DNA of 64,000 nucleotides, taken from the UHGV virus genome UHGV-0211740; one strand, written 5' to 3'. The position numbers and the translations under genes were made by a program. Positions 4,527 through 42,518 of this stretch are shown in pieces. Numbering within the stretch: the first letter of the stretch is position 1; every line of letters begins with the position of its first letter. Origin of the DNA: a virus. The notes under the pieces were generated by a model. The model worked only from the letters and a program-made list of their open reading frames with translations, searched no databases and was not told where the DNA came from.

Positions 4527-7124
4527 ATGCGTATTCAACACAACATTGATAACGTATTTCAGATGATTGAGGGGCACAGGAAGTGCCTCGATAATAACAC
4601 AGGTATTACCAACACCACTACACAAAATAAGCTAGTAAACCCTGATGGTCTTATAGCTGCAGGGTGGGCAGGTAATAAGATAAACAATGATTGGGCAATG
4701 CATGAGGCCCAAGCTGTGTTGATTCTGGGGTACATTGAAGCATATAGGGCATCGAAAAGCGATTTCTATCTGGACAGGGCAAAAGAGGCTTGGGAAGCTT
4801 ACAATAGTCATCTCTTGGGAGTATACGCAGTAGAAAGTAAAATGCAAAGACTATCCCACTACCCGTTATCTACTGATGGGGTTCCATCCCATGGTGGGTT
4901 TAAAGATGTGGTGGTGTCTTTTAACAAAGGTAGAGGAAAAATTCCGGCGGGATCTCCGACATGGGGTGAATACCTGGATAAAGCATTCCAGGCGTATAAC
5001 GGTGTGTTGGGAAGAAACACAGTTGATGCGGATGTTTACGGCGGCACAGATGCTAACCCCAACTGGACAACATCCGGATTAAGTTGGTGGGTTGAATGGT
5101 ATATAGCGTGGGACGGTAACCGCTATTGGGCCAACGGCAGCATAGCTGACAGTGGGCACACATCTGCAGAGTTTGGCACAATACAGCTGCAAGATAAGGG
5201 CGTTACAGGTAGCCATAAGGTAACCTACTGTGTGAGATTGCCTCAAGAGCAAGGTGGATCTGTGATACCTTCAGGATCTCCAGTAGTTGTAAACCCTATA
5301 AACGTGGTTGCAGATAATCAGGCTCCGGAATTGGACGGAGAAGAGATGTGGTGTGACGCTTGTTATCAACTCTACTCTTTGACAGGCGAGGAGAAGTATT
5401 ACACTGCGTTTAAACAGTCTTACGACAAGCTGCTTAATTTCAGTGATATAAACGCCTACGACAAACTGTTTAGAAAGACCACGTTGATTAAGGCACCGTT
5501 TACAGATGGTACTTGTCTTGTTGCAGGAACAGTTCCTGCTATGAGCAGGGACAGTGACGGATATATCAACTTTAGAATGAACGCACGCCAGCCCTGCGAG
5601 ATAATTCAAAAAGGTACCACCTACAAAATAGGTAGAGATACTGAAATTGTTATGAATTTCGGGGGAGAAGGTGTTCTGTTCCAGCCTCATTTCATCATTA
5701 ACGATGGCAACAATAATAAAAAACAATACAGAATAGGGGTTCCTTTTGGTGCGGCAGATGTAACAGAGGTAGTTGCCAAAGTTACTGATTTCGTCGAGGT
5801 GGTGGGGAAGGATGGTAACCCGTACCTCCTGCCTGAGGAGGAGAACATTGTCGTAACTGGTGGCGCTAGTGTTAGTATGCAATACGCTACTGACATTTAC
5901 AACCACTCTGACAACTTCTCCCGTTGCAATATAGCAAAAGGTAAAGTAACTTTCAATTTCGGAAGAGAGATTTCTTTAAACTCAGTGACTTACCGATCAG
6001 ATGATGAAATGGTAAGAGTCAAATTCCTTGACAAAGATCGTTGGTTATGGTATGCTGATCTATATGCTACTAACGGACAATGGGTAACAGAAACTCTTAC
6101 TTTAGGGGATTTCAAACTAGACCCAACACAACCTCATCACACCGAGGAGGAGATTAAGCCTTTCTTTGCTAACACCAAAGGTATTACCTCTGTAGATTTC
6201 AGTCTGAGCGATAGACAGATAGGAAATGGCCTGTTTGATCTGTATTGCGTCAATACGCTGCCTCAATTCTATATTGCAGATATGGATGCTTACCTAATCT
6301 GGTTTAGTGTATGGATGGCAAGCAAGACAGAATCGGTTGCTAAAGTTGGCGATTGCTATGTCAGAAACTACAAGCAAGGGGCATACAGACACACTCCAGG
6401 TGTGTTCCCTGCAGGGAAGGTGATAGATAAGGAAAGTTATCTTCTGGAAGAAAAGCCAAATTGGCCCTACCCAGGCATGCAATACCCAGCGGTATATTGT
6501 ATGGGCGCGGAAAACATAGATCGCCTCAGGTTGTCAAATACAATTGGGTTTATGTACGACTCTCAAGTTTGGTATAATAACACATTTAAAACCGAAGGAC
6601 CAGTCGCATCCCGCTACGTGTGGCAGAGAGGTAATGAGGGATTGTCTGGTTGGTGGGAGATGGTAGATAACTCTAAACTCCAGTCAAGATCTTTTGTTGC
6701 TGCGTGCCGCACAATATATGAGCTCAAGAAACATAAAGAGCCTGTTGATGAAAAACTTTTCCTGTTCTGCCAGAGATGGGCATGGTTCCTCAACAGATTC
6801 CAATCATCTCATTCTGGAAATCTTCCCACAGACTTTAACACCTCTGGAGGATATTCTTATCAAGACAGAGGAGACAGGATGTGGGTGGTCGGTGAGTGGC
6901 TTGCAGGTTGCTGCTGGTTAGGCTTGTGTGGGTATTCAGAGACAATACCTCAAATAGATATTGTTGTAGAAGCTTGCATGAAGCTGCTGCAAAAGCACCA
7001 CTTCATTAATGGCGATAATGTTTTAAACGGCTGCTGGGCAGTTTCTGATCCGGTAGGCTATCACTCTGGCGAAATCCTTCGCGGTCTAGGCCTTTATGCT
7101 CAATACCGTGGATTGTACCTTTAA
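4527..7124 (+). CDS. large virion/tail protein, function unknown
   Basis: 865-aa ORF, Trp/Tyr/Gly-rich; GGAG RBS; sits between two anchor-domain proteins. Confidence 0.55.
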   Translation: MRIQHNIDNVFQMIEGHRKCLDNNTGITNTTTQNKLVNPDGLIAAGWAGNKINNDWAMHEAQAVLILGYIEAYRASKSDFYLDRAKEAWEAYNSHLLGVYAVESKMQRLSHYPLSTDGVPSHGGFKDVVVSFNKGRGKIPAGSPTWGEYLDKAFQAYNGVLGRNTVDADVYGGTDANPNWTTSGLSWWVEWYIAWDGNRYWANGSIADSGHTSAEFGTIQLQDKGVTGSHKVTYCVRLPQEQGGSVIPSGSPVVVNPINVVADNQAPELDGEEMWCDACYQLYSLTGEEKYYTAFKQSYDKLLNFSDINAYDKLFRKTTLIKAPFTDGTCLVAGTVPAMSRDSDGYINFRMNARQPCEIIQKGTTYKIGRDTEIVMNFGGEGVLFQPHFIINDGNNNKKQYRIGVPFGAADVTEVVAKVTDFVEVVGKDGNPYLLPEEENIVVTGGASVSMQYATDIYNHSDNFSRCNIAKGKVTFNFGREISLNSVTYRSDDEMVRVKFLDKDRWLWYADLYATNGQWVTETLTLGDFKLDPTQPHHTEEEIKPFFANTKGITSVDFSLSDRQIGNGLFDLYCVNTLPQFYIADMDAYLIWFSVWMASKTESVAKVGDCYVRNYKQGAYRHTPGVFPAGKVIDKESYLLEEKPNWPYPGMQYPAVYCMGAENIDRLRLSNTIGFMYDSQVWYNNTFKTEGPVASRYVWQRGNEGLSGWWEMVDNSKLQSRSFVAACRTIYELKKHKEPVDEKLFLFCQRWAWFLNRFQSSHSGNLPTDFNTSGGYSYQDRGDRMWVVGEWLAGCCWLGLCGYSETIPQIDIVVEACMKLLQKHHFINGDNVLNGCWAVSDPVGYHSGEILRGLGLYAQYRGLYL

Positions 7125-10998: not shown

Positions 10999-11027
10999 TT
11001 GCGTATTAACTTAAAATCTGGTAAAAT
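10999..11027 (+). promoter_or_regulatory. putative promoter with extended -10 (TGG TAAAAT)
   Basis: TAAAAT preceded by TG; weak -35 TTGCGT at 17-nt spacing. Confidence 0.35.
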
Positions 11028-31980: not shown

Positions 31981-32010
31981 AAAAAGGGGCCGTTTGGCCC
32001 CTTTCTTTTT
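31981..32010. terminator. bidirectional terminator between convergent gene blocks
   Basis: AAAAA-GGGGCC-GTTT-GGCCCC-TTTCTTTTT between + gene ending 31967 and - gene ending 32015. Confidence 0.65.
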
Positions 32011-36236: not shown

Positions 36237-37697
36237 TTACTTAGCATACTCGATTAACTCTACAGTTTTCCCAAAGCTTGGGATATAATTTTTATTATAC
36301 CCCTCTGTGAGAACCCACAAAGTATCGTACTTTTTCCACTTGTTGTCAACAGCCTTTTGTTCAAAGTTATGCTCAAAGTATAGGTCGGTCAGGACGATGA
36401 CATCTTTTGCATTTGGTATGTTGGCATCCAGATACTCGAACACGCAAGCGGCTGTTGTGCCCCATGTTGAGTGGACCCCATAATTAATCATCTCGTCGAT
36501 GTTGCCACGAGTGTATACTTTGACCTCTCCAACCTCAGTTGACCAACAGAACATCGTAACCTTAAACTCTTTATACAGATTGCACAATCCAGTGATCTCA
36601 TTGAACATTTTCTTTAAAGTTCTTTGAGAGATCGAGCCAGAAACGTCTAAAGCCACCACAATATCTATCGTGTTTTCCGGATTACGCCCAGGAACAATAA
36701 CGTGCTGATTCTTGTTTATAGCTCCAACTTTCCGCATTGTGCTGGTCAAAGATCCGGATCGGCGACCAGGCTTTCTGTAGGTCAGTTCAGCCTTTCGTTT
36801 AGACAACATACGTTGCTTAATGATGTCTATATAGTTGATTACAGGCTTACCTCTATTCTTGACAAACTCTCGCACAGCCTCAGGGCAACGACCTCCGGAA
36901 GCTTGCATTGCTGCCTCCAGCATGTCACCAGAGTCCTGCATGGCCTGATCTTTATCAGATTGGCTAATTACAGGTTGTGGCTGATCATACCCCATAGCCT
37001 TTCCGAGATCATCACTGGCCCCACCGTTTCCACTCATGTGATCATCGGTTTGTCGCTTATCTCCTTGAGGGTTCTCACCTTTGCCATTCTTACTTTTACT
37101 GTTATTCTGGTCTCTTTGCTTGTCAAGAACTGCATAGACGTTCTCAGCAATCCATCCATGAAACCTCATATCACAGTAGCAACTGGCTAAGAAGCCAAAA
37201 GGCTTACCTTTTACGAAGGTAGTGCTTTTCCCCTTCGGGAAGAAAACACAAGGTGGCTTGCTAAAGTCAACCACAAGACCTGTATTGATAACGTGATCAC
37301 AAGCAATATTGAACAGTTCCGGTTCAAAGCTTTTACCACGGACCAGATGATCACAGATAATATGTCCAACCTCATGCGACAGAAGAAAGGCCACCTCTTT
37401 CACAGATTTTGGGGAATAGAAAACCTCAGCCATCTCAAACTGCTCGTCAGTAAGAGAGGCTTTAAGAATAGCCCTGCGCTCATCAGCCAACCCCATAATG
37501 AACTCAGGGCTGTAATAGATGCGTTTATGGTCGGTTGCCATGGTGGAGCACCATGTGTGGTTTTCTACGAACTGCAACCCTGACAACAGTGTGCCATAAA
37601 ACGGCAGCTTTTCAAGGAGATACATACGTGCAGCCTGCAACATTCTCAGGGCATCATCTTTTTGCGAGGCAATGATTTCTGAACTTCTGCTATCCAT
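36237..37697 (-). CDS. putative metallopeptidase (HExxH) fused to von Willebrand factor A domain
   Basis: N-terminal LSHEVGHIICDH; C-terminal DIVVALDVSGSIS (MIDAS DxSxS); GGAG RBS. Confidence 0.6.
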   Translation of the reverse strand: MDSRSSEIIASQKDDALRMLQAARMYLLEKLPFYGTLLSGLQFVENHTWCSTMATDHKRIYYSPEFIMGLADERRAILKASLTDEQFEMAEVFYSPKSVKEVAFLLSHEVGHIICDHLVRGKSFEPELFNIACDHVINTGLVVDFSKPPCVFFPKGKSTTFVKGKPFGFLASCYCDMRFHGWIAENVYAVLDKQRDQNNSKSKNGKGENPQGDKRQTDDHMSGNGGASDDLGKAMGYDQPQPVISQSDKDQAMQDSGDMLEAAMQASGGRCPEAVREFVKNRGKPVINYIDIIKQRMLSKRKAELTYRKPGRRSGSLTSTMRKVGAINKNQHVIVPGRNPENTIDIVVALDVSGSISQRTLKKMFNEITGLCNLYKEFKVTMFCWSTEVGEVKVYTRGNIDEMINYGVHSTWGTTAACVFEYLDANIPNAKDVIVLTDLYFEHNFEQKAVDNKWKKYDTLWVLTEGYNKNYIPSFGKTVELIEYAK

Positions 37698-37710
37698 TAA
37701 AACTCCAGAA

Positions 37711-37725
37711 GGGGCCGTTGGCCCC
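37711..37725 (-). promoter_or_regulatory. intergenic hairpin GGGGCC-GTT-GGCCCC
   Basis: Between the stop of 37731..38717 and the start of 36237..37697; same motif family as the 31986 and 7130 hairpins. Confidence 0.35.
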
Positions 37726-37730
37726 TGTCA

Positions 37731-38717
37731 TTATTTAACGTGTTTGAAAATACTCGCCAACTCGGTCATCGTCATGCGGGTAGTCTTCATAAGGTCTGTC
37801 ATAGCTTTTTCCATAATCGGTGATACTACCATGAAGTTGCCTTTAGCGAAACCTTTGTTCCAGTCGGTCACCAACAGAGGTTTGATCCCAGCCCCAAGAC
37901 GCTCACCAGTTAAAGCACAGTATTTGCGAATATACGAACTCTTGAATTGGCTAAAGGATAGATCAACTTTCATACCTGCATCGTAGAATGTTTGGCAATA
38001 GAAAGTGTAAGCCTTGGCAATCTCAACATCATCAGGCAGTGCAGGAACCTCTTCTGCAACCTCCTCTTCGACCTCCTGAGGCTCTTTTTCCTCTTCAGAG
38101 GTCTGTTGCACCATTTCTTCAATTTCTTCTGCCACAGGCTCGTTTACGATGTCTGAAATGTGTTTGTTGGCTGCACGCTCTGCCATAAAATTCTTAAAGT
38201 CCTGCATTGGTGACATATCTTCCTCCTCTTCGTCAAATAGTGCTAGTTTATCTTCTTCTGTCCCATATTGCAAGATGAAATCTTCAAAAGTATATTCATC
38301 TTTTAATTCCTCCATCCTCTCTTCGCTCAGGTGGAGCATCATTTGTTGGACAATTTTTCGATCAGTTTTGTCCTTAATCAAGATTGCGGTCGTTTTATCT
38401 ACCAGACAATCCTTAAGGGAGTTGCACCGAAGTCCAACCACACAACAGTTATCGATTGCATAAGGACCTTCATCGTTTATCCGCTCCAAAGATGGGTAGA
38501 ACGGATTCCCCAGTCCGTTTTCATCTGTGTGCATGTCAAAAGGAATAAGGGTGTAGTCGCACACCCCCTCTCCTAAAAGTTTTTTACCAAATAGGAGGTA
38601 TTCTTCCCATGACAGGTTGAACTCTATATCTCGTTTCCGTGCATTATTCTGTTTACGTCTATATTTTTTGAGCAGGCGCTCTAACTCTTCTGGTGTATAA
38701 TATTTTTCAAGATTCAT
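37731..38717 (-). CDS. hypothetical protein with acidic glutamate-rich central region
   Basis: ORF track 37731..38912; start placed at ATG 38717 so the gene does not run through the divergent promoters. Confidence 0.45.
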   Translation of the reverse strand: MNLEKYYTPEELERLLKKYRRKQNNARKRDIEFNLSWEEYLLFGKKLLGEGVCDYTLIPFDMHTDENGLGNPFYPSLERINDEGPYAIDNCCVVGLRCNSLKDCLVDKTTAILIKDKTDRKIVQQMMLHLSEERMEELKDEYTFEDFILQYGTEEDKLALFDEEEEDMSPMQDFKNFMAERAANKHISDIVNEPVAEEIEEMVQQTSEEEKEPQEVEEEVAEEVPALPDDVEIAKAYTFYCQTFYDAGMKVDLSFSQFKSSYIRKYCALTGERLGAGIKPLLVTDWNKGFAKGNFMVVSPIMEKAMTDLMKTTRMTMTELASIFKHVK

Positions 38718-38748
38718 GAGTTGTCTCTTGTGCTCTGTAGGTGAAGAA

Positions 38749-38777
38749 ATCTTATCAAGTGCCTCGACAGATGTCAA
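38749..38777 (-). promoter_or_regulatory. sigma70-like promoter on minus strand, TTGACA-17-TAAGAT
   Basis: Reverse complement read directly; drives the leftward block. Confidence 0.5.
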
Positions 38778-38790
38778 CCTCAAAAACGTA

Positions 38791-38819
38791 TTGACTTTAC
38801 TATAAATCCACGATATAGT
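38791..38819 (+). promoter_or_regulatory. sigma70-like promoter TTGACT-17-TATAGT
   Basis: Back-to-back with the minus-strand promoter; drives the rightward block. Confidence 0.5.
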
Positions 38820-38859
38820 GCACCCATTCGAAAGAAAACGAACACAGGAGCACTTAATC

Positions 38860-39759
38860 ATGGCAAATCTTAACAGCTTTAGCACTCGGTGGAAACAAGA
38901 TATCACAACCAATCTCTCAGCAGGTGATATCCTTTCTGCAATTTACGAGGCTTTGGATGATAAAGCTACTTCAAAATCGGTTTGTACCAACCCGCTAATT
39001 CCTATAGTAATGAAGGTTATTGAGCGTAGACTGGTATCCGGATCTGATAAGTGGACATATCTGGATAATGGAGGCCACACTTACTCCAACGGCTATGTCG
39101 ATATAAAAGTAGAATATGCGGTATCATATCGCCGGAGCGGCTCTGTAACTTTCAACTTCTCTGGTGGTTTCCGATCTCTGGCAACTTCACCTTTTGTTTC
39201 CTCAGAGGAGAAGTTTGAACTTCCGTTCCTTTGGATGATGGCTAACGCGACAGGCAAAACCCCCGTAAGCATTCGCGTAAAATACAACTACAACGGATCT
39301 AGTAAGATCTATGCCGAGAGTGTCTCAGCAAGTTTTTATTTTGTGATGGGGGATGGAATCCTCAAACATATAAAGATGTGCGATATGCATGATGTTATAA
39401 ATGAAGTGACTGATAAGAATGTTCTGGTGAAGGATCTCAACAATTTTTATACACCTGGGGACTATTACGTCAACCGTCCACTGTGCATCTTTAATGCCGC
39501 ACACCCTTTAGGTGAGTATTTGATCGCCAATAGCGATATTGCCAATAACCGCTTCGAGGTAGCAAGAGTACAGAATGAGGTGTTGACATCTTGCAAGAGC
39601 GGTGATAAGTTTACCGAAGAGGAGATGGGTGTTTTAGAAATGATGGGATATAAGTGTAGCCTTTGGGTAGATGAGGTGTTTAATGACGGCATCTATGGAC
39701 AGGATATTTACCCGTTAAAGAAGTATACTGATTCCAGTTTAATTTACGCGGAGATTTGA
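38860..39759 (+). CDS. hypothetical protein
   Basis: ORF track 38818..39759; ATG 38860 with AGGAG RBS downstream of promoter. Confidence 0.55.
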   Translation: MANLNSFSTRWKQDITTNLSAGDILSAIYEALDDKATSKSVCTNPLIPIVMKVIERRLVSGSDKWTYLDNGGHTYSNGYVDIKVEYAVSYRRSGSVTFNFSGGFRSLATSPFVSSEEKFELPFLWMMANATGKTPVSIRVKYNYNGSSKIYAESVSASFYFVMGDGILKHIKMCDMHDVINEVTDKNVLVKDLNNFYTPGDYYVNRPLCIFNAAHPLGEYLIANSDIANNRFEVARVQNEVLTSCKSGDKFTEEEMGVLEMMGYKCSLWVDEVFNDGIYGQDIYPLKKYTDSSLIYAEI

Positions 39760-40034
39760 CTATGATGAAGGCATGTGGTAGTGTATATTACGTCGGTGAA
39801 CATGTTCAGGCAGACAGTGTGTGGAAATCTATTAAGTCTACCACTGATGATGCCTTTCTGAGTAGCCTATGTTTCCCCAACCCTGGGGACATCCTTCCCC
39901 ACCAGGGGGATTTCGTTGTTAACAAAGCGGATGGCTATACTGTGTGCCTGATGGTTGAAAAAATCTTTTTAGACCCTCGACACAATCACCGTCTTGTGTT
40001 AAAATTCCAAGAATGTAAAATGACAGTCGCCTAA
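39756..40034 (+). CDS. hypothetical small protein
   Basis: ORF track; 4-nt overlap with upstream gene. Confidence 0.45.
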   Translation: MTMMKACGSVYYVGEHVQADSVWKSIKSTTDDAFLSSLCFPNPGDILPHQGDFVVNKADGYTVCLMVEKIFLDPRHNHRLVLKFQECKMTVA

Positions 40035-41043: not shown

Positions 41044-41334
41044 ATGCCGCTTAAAAGAGTAATAAATATGTTATATCAGAAACACGTAACGCGTGCAGAA
41101 AAAGAGTTAAATTTTGACAAAGTTATCCACAGATGTTGTTATGGAAAAATCGGAAGACAGTTAAGAGGGTGCCCCACATTCTTTCACTCCAGTAGACGGC
41201 TAAGTCCTGAAGAGGCAACAGCAGAAATGGTTGCATATAACTGGGAAGTTGTGTACGATATTGACAGATCCGATGTGACATCTGTTTTGGAAAACTTTGA
41301 AAACACTTACACACAAGTAGAGGACTTTTACTAA
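41044..41334 (+). CDS. hypothetical small protein
   Basis: ORF track 41029..41334 (GTG); ATG 41044 chosen. Confidence 0.4.
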   Translation: MPLKRVINMLYQKHVTRAEKELNFDKVIHRCCYGKIGRQLRGCPTFFHSSRRLSPEEATAEMVAYNWEVVYDIDRSDVTSVLENFENTYTQVEDFY

Positions 41335-42518
41335 TGTCAAGAAACGTATTTGAAAGTGGTCAAATTACTGTCCGCGAGTTGCCAGCTATTATTAAGTTTG
41401 CCCAACGGCATAATCGATCTGTTCTGATTTTAGGACCGATGGGTGTTGGGAAGAGCCAAGTGATGAAGCAGATCGCTGACAGCATGTTCGGTGAGCGAGA
41501 TGACAACCTGGTTGATGTTCGGCTGTCAGATAAAGACCCTGCTGACTTGTCTGGGTTACCTATCCCTGTAGAGTCGGATGGGACTACACGCACAGTGTTT
41601 GCAATTCCAGAATTTTGGCCTGCAGATCCGGACTGGAGCGGAATTATCTTCCTAGATGAGCTTACTCATGCAGATAACTACCTGCAGAAGGTTGCAATGC
41701 AAATTATGCTCGACCACAAGTGTGGCACCTATGCATTCCCTAAGAGTTCTGTTTTTGTAGCTGCAGGAAACCGTGCTACAGACGGTGCTGTTCTTTCGGC
41801 GCTAGAAGCTCCTCTAGCTAACCGCTTTATCATTGTAGAAGTTACAAGCAATGCAGAGGTGTTTATTGAGGACTATGCATTCCTTAATGGGGTGCACTCC
41901 TCGGTAATTGGATATCTGAAAAGAGTCCCATCAGCCATCGATAATTATGAGGCCATGGCTGAGATTAATTGTCCAGCTTTTGCTACACCGCGATCTTGGG
42001 TTGCTGCATCTGACATCCTGCACGATTTTGACAGCGGTATTATTTCTGACGCTATGGCTCGTGTTCTTCTGCAAGGTGCTATCGGTCACACTGCAGCGGT
42101 AGAAATCTGGACCTACCACACCAAGAAACGAAACTTGCCAGAAATCGGTCGGATTATGGCAGGGGGTTGCAAAGAGTATGTAGGTCCTAAGCAGCCAGAT
42201 ATTTTGTGGATTCTGGGGTCTGAAGGGTGTATCGCTATTCGTAACATGATGGAAAATGCAAGTATCTCCGACGAAGATCTTGTCAGCTGTGTGGCAAACT
42301 TCCTTGATTTCCTTTGGGAAAATTTCAAGGATGAGAACCGAGACTTTGTATTCTCAGTCTTTATGGCGATGATGAAACCCAACGCCCTAGGAAATGCCTT
42401 ACTTATTGGTAAAGGCCGGGACAAGATCGTTGCTCAGCTGATCAAAGCATACCCGAACCTGATGAAGATTGTAAAAGAGTTTGGTGAAGAGTTTAGCGCC
42501 ATTTTAGCTAAAGCTTGA
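41334..42518 (+). CDS. AAA+ ATPase, MoxR/AAA_5-like
   Basis: Walker A GPMGVGKSQ; Walker B IIFLDELTHA. Confidence 0.6.
   Translation: MSRNVFESGQITVRELPAIIKFAQRHNRSVLILGPMGVGKSQVMKQIADSMFGERDDNLVDVRLSDKDPADLSGLPIPVESDGTTRTVFAIPEFWPADPDWSGIIFLDELTHADNYLQKVAMQIMLDHKCGTYAFPKSSVFVAAGNRATDGAVLSALEAPLANRFIIVEVTSNAEVFIEDYAFLNGVHSSVIGYLKRVPSAIDNYEAMAEINCPAFATPRSWVAASDILHDFDSGIISDAMARVLLQGAIGHTAAVEIWTYHTKKRNLPEIGRIMAGGCKEYVGPKQPDILWILGSEGCIAIRNMMENASISDEDLVSCVANFLDFLWENFKDENRDFVFSVFMAMMKPNALGNALLIGKGRDKIVAQLIKAYPNLMKIVKEFGEEFSAILAKA

What the first reader, a model, noticed from the sequence alone, without database searches (positions are those of the whole stretch)
38718..38860. Back-to-back divergent promoters separate the two gene blocks
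A minus-strand TTGACA-17-TAAGAT and a plus-strand TTGACT-17-TATAGT lie with their -35 elements 13 bp apart. The ORF-track starts of both flanking ORFs run through this region, so the shorter starts (38717 and 38860) are preferred.
Basis: seen in the sequence. Interest (0 to 1): 0.45.

Follow-up and report, generated by a model that had tools for sequence, protein, structure and literature searches.

The report
Divergent early promoters of rV5-like phage
The 142-bp gap between two oppositely oriented gene blocks of this rV5-like E. coli phage holds two conserved host-type (sigma-70) promoters facing away from each other, an ordinary arrangement whose counterpart was already predicted in the 2013 rV5 genome paper.

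Summary
On the minus strand, TTGACA (38777-38772), a 17-nt spacer and TAAGAT (38754-38749) follow a TG extended -10. On the plus strand, TTGACT (38791-38796), 17 nt and TATAGT (38814-38819). The two -35 hexamers are 13 bp apart, inside the 142-bp intergenic region 38718-38859.

The window is a Vequintavirus (rV5-like coliphage, about 93% identical to rV5 and FV3). The flanking genes match rV5 gene 11 (Srd-like "anti-sigma factor", minus strand) and gene 10 (plus strand).

Both sites look like real promoters:
- Each matches 10 of 12 consensus positions. The chance of one such site on each strand of a given 142-bp stretch is about 2e-4.
- Across 12 distinct Vequintavirus sequences, only 2 of 24 hexamer columns vary, against 22 of 34 spacer columns (p about 1e-5).
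- A back-to-back pair sits at the Srd-like gene in other Vequintavirinae genera.

The short starts are right. Relatives carry in-frame stops upstream of both ATGs, and most annotations use 38717 and 38860.

This is not new. Kropinski et al. [quoted passage not shown] I found no transcript mapping for this genus, so function remains predicted. Interest is low.

The parts
38772..38777 (-). -35 hexamer TTGACA of the leftward promoter (orthologue of rV5 P011)
   Evidence: Invariant in 12 distinct Vequintavirus sequences. TTGACA is kept upstream of the Srd-like gene in other Vequintavirinae genera, TTGACT in one.
38749..38757 (-). Extended -10 of the leftward promoter: TG (38757-38756), one base, then TAAGAT (38754-38749)
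   Evidence: flags TG before the second hexamer. Only position 3 of the hexamer varies (TAAGAT or TACGAT) and the TG is invariant. rV5 Table S4 lists TGATACGAT as P011.
38718..38742 (-). Predicted 5' leader of the Srd-like gene: inferred start at A 38742, 7 nt after the -10, with an AAGAGA Shine-Dalgarno-like site at 38729-38724
   Evidence: Inferred from -10 geometry. An RBS is annotated at the matching place in phage Murica. The fold is not significantly stable.
38778..38790 (.). 13-bp segment between the two -35 hexamers, containing a conserved A5/T5 tract (38782-38786)
   Evidence: The AAAAA run is conserved, with A6 in one relative making the gap 14 bp. An UP-element-like role is inference only.
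38791..38796 (+). -35 hexamer TTGACT of the rightward promoter (orthologue of rV5 P010)
   Evidence: Invariant in 12 distinct sequences. rV5 Table S4 P010.
38814..38819 (+). -10 hexamer TATAGT of the rightward promoter
   Evidence: There is one variant (TACAGT) among 12 sequences, while 13 of 17 spacer columns vary.
38826..38859 (+). Predicted 5' leader of the gene-10 homologue: inferred start at A 38826, AGGAG at 38846-38850, then 9 nt to the ATG
   Evidence: Inferred from -10 geometry. An RBS is annotated at the matching place in Murica. The stretch 38820-38840 is nearly invariant, 3 of 21 columns varying. No significant RNA fold.
37731..38717 (-). Srd-like gene (rV5 gene 11 homologue), first gene of the minus-strand block; true start is ATG 38717
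   Evidence: PHROG 3118, 1400 (Srd anti-sigma factor) and 4592. Annotations. In-frame stops upstream in most relatives. Alignment with distant homologues.
38860..39759 (+). rV5 gene 10 homologue (PHROG 12338, unknown function), first gene of the plus-strand block; true start is ATG 38860
   Evidence: A TAG lies 4 codons upstream in 7 relatives.

Best explanation
The 142-bp intergenic region holds two separate host sigma-70-type promoters placed back to back. They are the starting points of two divergent transcription units of an rV5-like phage.

On infection, unmodified E. coli RNA polymerase holoenzyme (E-sigma70) would bind each -35/-10 pair.
- Leftward: initiation near 38742, transcribing the Srd-like gene and the rest of the minus block (rV5 genes 11-26).
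- Rightward: initiation near 38826, transcribing the gene-10 homologue and the plus block beyond it.

The two inferred start sites are about 84 bp apart. The core contacts (-35 to +20) therefore do not overlap. Each polymerase's upstream zone (-40 to -60) lies over the other promoter's -35 and spacer, with a shared A5/T5 tract in the middle.

What is shown: the motifs, their geometry, their conservation pattern and the correct gene starts. What is inferred: the start sites, early timing, any use of the A-tract by the alpha subunit, and any coupling between the two promoters (competition, or mutual help through negative supercoiling).
For: Motifs and geometry.

Statistics: about 2e-4 for a 10-of-12 site on both strands of one 142-bp stretch. 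Sites of 10 or more matches are enriched only on the sense strand of the two non-structural blocks (5 against 0.78, and 17 against 3.1, with 0 of 100 shuffles reaching either). They are not enriched on antisense strands or in the structural block at 1-32 kb.

Footprint within the genus: 2 of 24 hexamer columns vary, against 22 of 34 spacer columns (Fisher p 1.2e-5) and 49 of 118 other intergenic columns (p 0.001). The TG of the extended -10 never varies.

Other genera: Seunavirus, Mydovirus, Henunavirus, TH18-like phages, a Serratia phage and a clade about 65% identical in the protein keep a strong promoter aimed at the Srd-like gene (TTGACA, in one TTGACT, with 16-17 nt to an xATAAT-like -10), and in the same relative position an outward-facing TTGNNN, 16-17 nt, TAxxxT.

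Gene starts.

[quoted passage not shown] GenBank DQ832317 annotates P11.

The late-type motif TGGTAAAATA is enriched elsewhere in the window but absent from this region.
Against: I found no experimental 5'-end, RNA-seq or reporter data for any Vequintavirus, so function is predicted only.

The consensus scan is permissive: at 9 of 12 matches the local excess is small, 14 found against 10 expected.

In the distant genera the outward-facing partner is a weak match (8-9 of 12). Part of its conservation (AATCAAGTG next to TTGACA) could instead belong to the extended upstream consensus of the Srd-side promoter, AAAA(N3)TGTTGAC.

Two -35 hexamers facing apart necessarily form an inverted repeat, which could also serve as a protein-binding site.
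Confidence: 0.82

Rival explanations
1. Only the leftward (Srd-side) promoter works. The rightward TTGACT-17-TATAGT is a conserved but non-functional or very weak match, and the plus block is driven mainly by the many internal promoters further downstream.
For: The Srd-side promoter is the better conserved across genera, at 9-11 of 12 matches with TTGACA (TTGACT in one). The original GenBank record annotates only P11. The plus block has many further strong sites, for example at 39977, 43284, 47924 and 49571.
Against: Within the genus the rightward hexamers are as invariant as the leftward ones, while 13 of 17 of its spacer columns vary. The gene-10 homologue has no other promoter-like site ahead of it. 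The rV5 paper lists P010 among its stringent 10-of-12 set.
Confidence: 0.08
2. The conserved TGTCAA-N13-TTGACT inverted repeat is mainly an operator for a dimeric phage or host regulator, or part of a replication origin, and not two -35 elements.
For: The two hexamers form a 5-of-6 inverted repeat. A related palindrome, TCAA-GTG-TTGA, is conserved in other genera. The GC skew changes sign here.
Against: The properly spaced -10 hexamers and the TG are conserved as well, which an operator model does not require. The gap between the arms differs between clades (3-4 or 13-14 bp), which a single dimeric binder would not tolerate. I found no iterons, other repeats or operator-like palindromes. The rV5 authors found that skew changes track transcription direction.
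Confidence: 0.05
3. The matches are chance, and the long ORFs (TTG 38912 on the minus strand, GTG 38818 on the plus strand) are the real genes, so the region is coding.
For: In this window both long ORFs are open through the region. One record (NHEP1) even calls a small CDS across it.
Against: Relatives have in-frame stops 4 codons upstream of the plus ATG (7 relatives) and 26-30 codons upstream of the minus ATG in most. The substitution pattern in the region follows promoter elements and not codon positions. Distant homologues start at the short N-terminus. Both ATGs have Shine-Dalgarno sites.
Confidence: 0.02

Closest known systems
rV5 promoters P010 and P011 (Kropinski et al. 2013, Virol J 10:76, PMC3606486, Table S4; P11 also in GenBank DQ832317)
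   Same: Orthologous position between genes 10 and 11, the same hexamers (TTGACT-17-TATAGT; TTGACA-17-TGATACGAT against TGATAAGAT here) and the same 13-bp gap. The paper calls them bidirectional promoters.
   Different: The intergenic region differs by about 12%, mostly in spacers and leaders. One -10 position differs (TAAGAT against TACGAT). rV5's deposited gene 11 start is 14 codons shorter than the one used by most later annotations.
Certrevirus early promoter consensus AAAA(N3-4)TGTTGAC(N17-19)TATAAT (Pectobacterium phage CB7 paper, PMC7344957)
   Same: Same subfamily and the same sigma-70-like class, with an A-tract upstream of -35. Most Vequintavirus versions of the rightward promoter read AAAAACGTGTTGACT, which fits this consensus.
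   Different: This window has TATTGACT where the consensus has TGTTGAC. The leftward promoter has a T-tract and GG ahead of its -35 and does not fit the upstream part of the consensus.
Back-to-back divergent promoter pairs of E. coli, such as ilvY/ilvC (Beck and Warren 1988 classification; supercoiling coupling reviewed in PMC4469952)
   Same: Two separate promoters on opposite strands whose upstream regions abut. Transcription from one would put negative supercoils into the other.
   Different: No regulator site is evident here, both promoters are near-consensus, and coupling has not been tested.
Symmetry-based bidirectional promoters (Warman et al., bioRxiv 10.1101/2020.01.31.928960)
   Same: Divergent transcription from one short region.
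   Different: That class has start sites 7-25 bp apart, most often 18, around overlapping -10 elements. Here the -10 elements are 59 bp apart and the inferred start sites about 84 bp apart. These are two promoters, not one symmetrical one.

Membership tests
Sigma-70 (-35/-10) promoter | -35 hexamer close to TTGACA | tested here: met
   TTGACA (6 of 6) and TTGACT (5 of 6). Both are invariant in 12 relatives.
Sigma-70 (-35/-10) promoter | -10 hexamer close to TATAAT, with A at position 2 and T at position 6 | tested here: met
   TAAGAT (4 of 6, plus a TG extension) and TATAGT (5 of 6). Only position 3 varies among relatives.
Sigma-70 (-35/-10) promoter | Spacer of 17 +/- 1 bp | tested here: met
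   17 bp in both, and kept at 17 in all 12 Vequintavirus sequences despite heavy spacer substitution.
Sigma-70 (-35/-10) promoter | Transcription initiates 6-9 nt downstream of the -10 and depends on E-sigma70 | not testable with these tools
   I found no transcript 5'-end data for this genus. It needs dRNA-seq or in vitro transcription.
Back-to-back divergent promoter pair | Two promoters on opposite strands, pointing apart, with non-overlapping core elements, each followed by a gene in its own direction | tested here: met
   The -35 hexamers are 13 bp apart and facing outward, with genes starting at 38717 (minus) and 38860 (plus).
Symmetry-based bidirectional promoter (Warman type) | Divergent start sites 7-25 bp apart with overlapping -10 elements | tested here: not met
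   The -10 elements lie at 38749-38754 and 38814-38819, giving inferred start sites about 84 bp apart.
Orthologue of rV5 P010/P011 | Same position between gene 10 and gene 11 homologues, with alignable sequence | tested here: met
   The alignment to DQ832317 is 91.5% identical over 201 bp, with the same hexamers and gap.
Vequintavirinae early promoter AAAA(N3-4)TGTTGAC(N17-19)TATAAT | A-tract, 3-4 nt, then TGTTGAC | tested here: inconclusive
   The rightward promoter reads AAAAACGTATTGACT here and AAAAACGTGTTGACT in most relatives, a near fit. The leftward promoter reads TTTTTGAGGTTGACA and does not fit the upstream part.

The most novel reading that the evidence does not exclude
The two -35 elements may form one coupled module and not two independent promoters. 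Wherever the Srd-like gene heads a divergent junction in Vequintavirinae, the gap between the back-to-back -35 hexamers is either 3-4 bp or 13-14 bp and never in between. That difference is one helical turn, and the longer form carries a conserved central A5/T5 tract.

This could mean the two polymerases must sit on fixed faces of the helix. They might share or compete for the central tract, setting the ratio between Srd-like host-takeover expression and the opposite early operon.
Probability: 0.1. Interest if true: 0.35.

Novelty: already known. Interest (0 to 1): 0.13.

Why it matters
It matters little beyond annotation. The result fixes the true starts of the two flanking genes and gives comparative support for a promoter pair that the rV5 genome paper predicted from one genome. 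It also shows that the Srd-like gene heads a divergent, sigma-70-driven unit in several Vequintavirinae genera. That is useful for anyone mapping the early transcription programme of these therapeutic-candidate phages or borrowing compact bidirectional promoters. It does not change any current view of phage transcription.

Tried and rejected
- **Known RNA family:** the Rfam scan of 38300-39300 gave only a sub-threshold chance hit outside the region.
- **Structured leaders or riboregulators:** neither predicted leader folds better than shuffled sequence, z = +0.42 and -1.43.
- **Operators, iterons or origin repeats:** only short two-copy matches turned up. The DnaA-box-like AAATCCACG lies in the variable spacer and is not conserved.
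- **T4-late-like TATAAAT inside the plus spacer:** not conserved; rV5 has TCTAAAT there.
- **rV5 late motif TGGTAAAATA:** enriched elsewhere in the window but absent from this region.
- **Long ORF starts:** rejected because of in-frame stops in relatives.
- **Transcriptome or start-site data for Vequintavirus:** three literature searches found none. The one candidate paper concerned a T5-like phage.
- **Metagenome scan for more lineages, to test the helical-phase idea:** it added no new gap classes and no new independent transitions, so the idea stays untested.
- **A 3-bp back-to-back layout at rV5's other divergence point (genes 81/82):** the -35 pair is there, but the rightward one lacks a usable -10 at 16-18 bp.

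Full report
**1. Observation**

- Minus strand: TTGACA at 38777-38772, a 17-nt spacer, then TAAGAT at 38754-38749. A TG at 38757-38756 makes it an extended -10 (TGATAAGAT).
- Plus strand: TTGACT at 38791-38796, 17 nt, then TATAGT at 38814-38819.
- The -35 hexamers face away from each other, with 13 bp (38778-38790) between them.

Both sites match 10 of 12 consensus positions and are the top two hits in 36-42 kb. The mechanical ORF list extends both flanking ORFs through the region: TTG at 38912 for the minus ORF and GTG at 38818 for the plus ORF. The internal ATGs are at 38717 and 38860.

**2. What the window is**

The region is 90-95% identical to 118 phage records, all of genus Vequintavirus (rV5, FV3, slur16, BASEL phages and others).

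The minus-strand gene 37731-38717 is the homologue of rV5 gene 11. It is Srd-like and carries the labels "anti-sigma factor", "anti-termination protein" or "HNH endonuclease" in different records. It hits PHROG 3118, 1400 and 4592 and has no Pfam hit.

The plus-strand gene 38860-39759 is the homologue of rV5 gene 10. It is labelled a putative fucosyltransferase, but it has no Pfam hit and its PHROG 12338 has unknown function.

ORF orientation and GC skew show a short minus-strand block from about 32.2 kb to 38.7 kb, set between plus-strand blocks. This matches the rV5 units "11-26" and "10-1-238-164".

**3. More than chance?**

At 10 or more matches of 12, the window holds 36 sites against 15.8 +/- 3.5 in dinucleotide shuffles. 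That density gives about 0.014 for a hit on one given strand of a 142-bp stretch, and about 2e-4 for both strands.

The excess is strand- and region-specific:

| Block | Strand | Observed | Expected | Shuffles reaching observed (of 100) |
|---|---|---|---|---|
| 32.0-38.7 kb | sense (minus) | 5 | 0.78 | 0 |
| 38.7-64 kb | sense (plus) | 17 | 3.1 | 0 |
| 1-32 kb (structural) | plus / minus | 7 / 6 | about 4 each | 14 / 23 |

The antisense strands of the two non-structural blocks show no excess. This phage region therefore uses many sigma-70-type promoters, and the pair under study belongs to that set.

**4. Conservation within the genus**

I aligned 38690-38890 with 14 relatives, giving 12 distinct sequences at 85-98.5% identity.
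- Of the 24 hexamer columns, only 2 vary, each at position 3 of a -10.
- 22 of the 34 spacer columns vary (Fisher p 1.2e-5).
- 49 of the 118 other intergenic columns vary (p 0.001).
- The TG of the extended -10 never varies, and both spacers stay at 17 bp.

This is the expected footprint of two functional promoters. The first 21 bases after the plus -10 (38820-38840) are also nearly invariant. I did not find a reason for this. The leader has no significant fold and no Rfam match.

**5. Gene starts**

Seven relatives have a TAG four codons upstream of the plus ATG. Most relatives have a stop 26-30 codons upstream of the minus ATG. Neither long ORF is therefore conserved.

Nine of the eleven annotated records I read use the starts equivalent to 38717 and 38860. 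The exceptions are rV5's own record, whose gene 11 starts 14 codons further in, and V18. Srd-like proteins of other genera align from the short N-terminus. Shine-Dalgarno sites sit at 38846-38850 (AGGAG) and 38729-38724 (AAGAGA), where phage Murica annotates ribosome-binding sites. The GTG at 38818 overlaps the -10 itself.

**6. Beyond the genus**

The Srd-like gene heads a divergent junction in several other lineages: Seunavirus (SSE121, GAP31), Mydovirus (KB57), Henunavirus (pEa_SNUABM_55), TH18-like phages and an uncultured clade about 65% identical in the protein. In Serratia phage ChuuTotoro the junction lies four genes upstream of it.

All of these keep a strong promoter on the Srd side (TTGACA, in one TTGACT, then 16-17 nt to GATAAT, CATAAT or GATACT; 9-11 of 12 matches). 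In a fixed relative position on the other strand they also keep TTGNNN, 16-17 nt, TAxxxT (8-10 of 12).

The gap between the two -35 hexamers falls into two classes:
- 13-14 bp in Vequintavirus and the 65% clade.
- 3-4 bp everywhere else.

That is one helical turn of difference, but it looks like a single evolutionary event, so it proves nothing about constraint.

One caution applies. In the 3-bp genera, part of the conserved AATCAAGTG may belong to the extended consensus AAAA(N3)TGTTGAC described for Certrevirus early promoters, and not to an opposing -35.

**7. Mechanism**

The most likely reading is two independent host-type promoters.
- E-sigma70 initiates near A 38742 (minus) and A 38826 (plus).
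- The leaders are 25 and 34 nt long.
- The inferred start sites are about 84 bp apart.
- Core contacts do not overlap, but each polymerase's -40 to -60 zone lies over the other promoter, with a conserved A5/T5 tract (38782-38786) in the middle.

The following points are inferred and not shown: early timing, any alpha-subunit use of the tract, and any competition or supercoiling-mediated help of the kind described for ilvY/ilvC.

T4 Srd, the namesake of the leftward gene, stimulates RNase E against host mRNA (Qi et al. 2015, as cited in PMC4980113). The rV5 authors speculated that gene 11 might act in an early-to-late switch. Neither function is tested for this phage.

**8. Comparison with what is known**

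[quoted passage not shown] Its Table S4 lists both:
- P010 at 6636..6681, minus strand: TTGACT-17-TATAGT.
- P011 at 6685..6713, plus strand: TTGACA followed by TGATACGAT.

These are the orthologues of the two sites here. GenBank DQ832317 annotates P11.

The pair is not a symmetry-type bidirectional promoter. In that class the start sites are 7-25 bp apart around overlapping -10 elements. I found no start-site or RNA-seq data for the genus.

**9. Verdict**

Both flanking gene starts are resolved in favour of the short ATGs. The feature is ordinary and already published as a prediction for the type phage. What this analysis adds is comparative support and the subfamily-wide picture. Interest is low.

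Noticed in passing
window 37710-37726 and 31983-32004: Two nearly identical GC-rich hairpins. AGGGGCCGTTGGCCCCT lies between the Srd-like gene and the next minus-strand gene. [quoted passage not shown] The first has no clean U-run on the minus strand, so it may be a partial terminator or an RNA-stabilising hairpin.
   Followed up: partly
window 36237-37697 (-) and 41334-42518 (+): A DUF2201 metallopeptidase/VWA-like protein and a MoxR-type AAA ATPase, which usually work as partners, sit on opposite arms of the divergent promoter region and not in one operon.
   Followed up: no
window 37731-38717 and 38860-39759: Public annotation is inconsistent. The Srd-like gene is called anti-sigma factor, anti-termination protein or HNH endonuclease in different records. 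The 'alpha 1-3 fucosyltransferase' label on the gene-10 homologue has no Pfam support, and its PHROG has unknown function.
   Followed up: partly
window 38820-38840: The first 21 bases downstream of the plus -10 (GCACCCATTCGAAAGAAAACG) are almost invariant across 12 distinct relatives, more conserved than the neighbouring coding sequence. No fold or known RNA family explains this.
   Followed up: partly
window, mostly + strand within 1-32000: The rV5 'late promoter' motif TGGTAAAATA (at most 1 mismatch) occurs 19 times against 5.6 expected. Most copies lie on the plus strand of the structural-gene block, and exact copies are at 11019 and 16839.
   Followed up: partly
L006, L007, L008, L010 and L018-L031, about 15-30 nt upstream of the Srd-like start codon: In Seunavirus, Mydovirus and Henunavirus the leader of the Srd-like gene carries a conserved ACGGG-N5-CCCA hairpin just 5' of the Shine-Dalgarno site. 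The stem is fixed and the loop varies (AACAA, TAAGA, ATTGT, AATAA). It is absent from Vequintavirus.
   Followed up: no
L059 431-445 (rV5 DQ832317, junction of genes 81 and 82; outside the window): rV5's other divergence point has the same back-to-back layout with a 3-bp gap (TTTCAA-GTG-TTGACA). The 2013 paper reported only P081 there. The rightward TTGACA has no canonical -10 at 16-18 bp, and gene 82 may really start at a downstream ATG preceded by GAGGA.
   Followed up: partly
L013 compared with the window (IMGVR_UViG_3300045988_173923): This viral contig encodes a gene-10 protein 100% identical to the window's, but its Srd-like protein is only about 93% identical. Its -35 gap is 14 bp (A6 in place of A5). 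This suggests a recombination breakpoint at or near the intergenic region.
   Followed up: no
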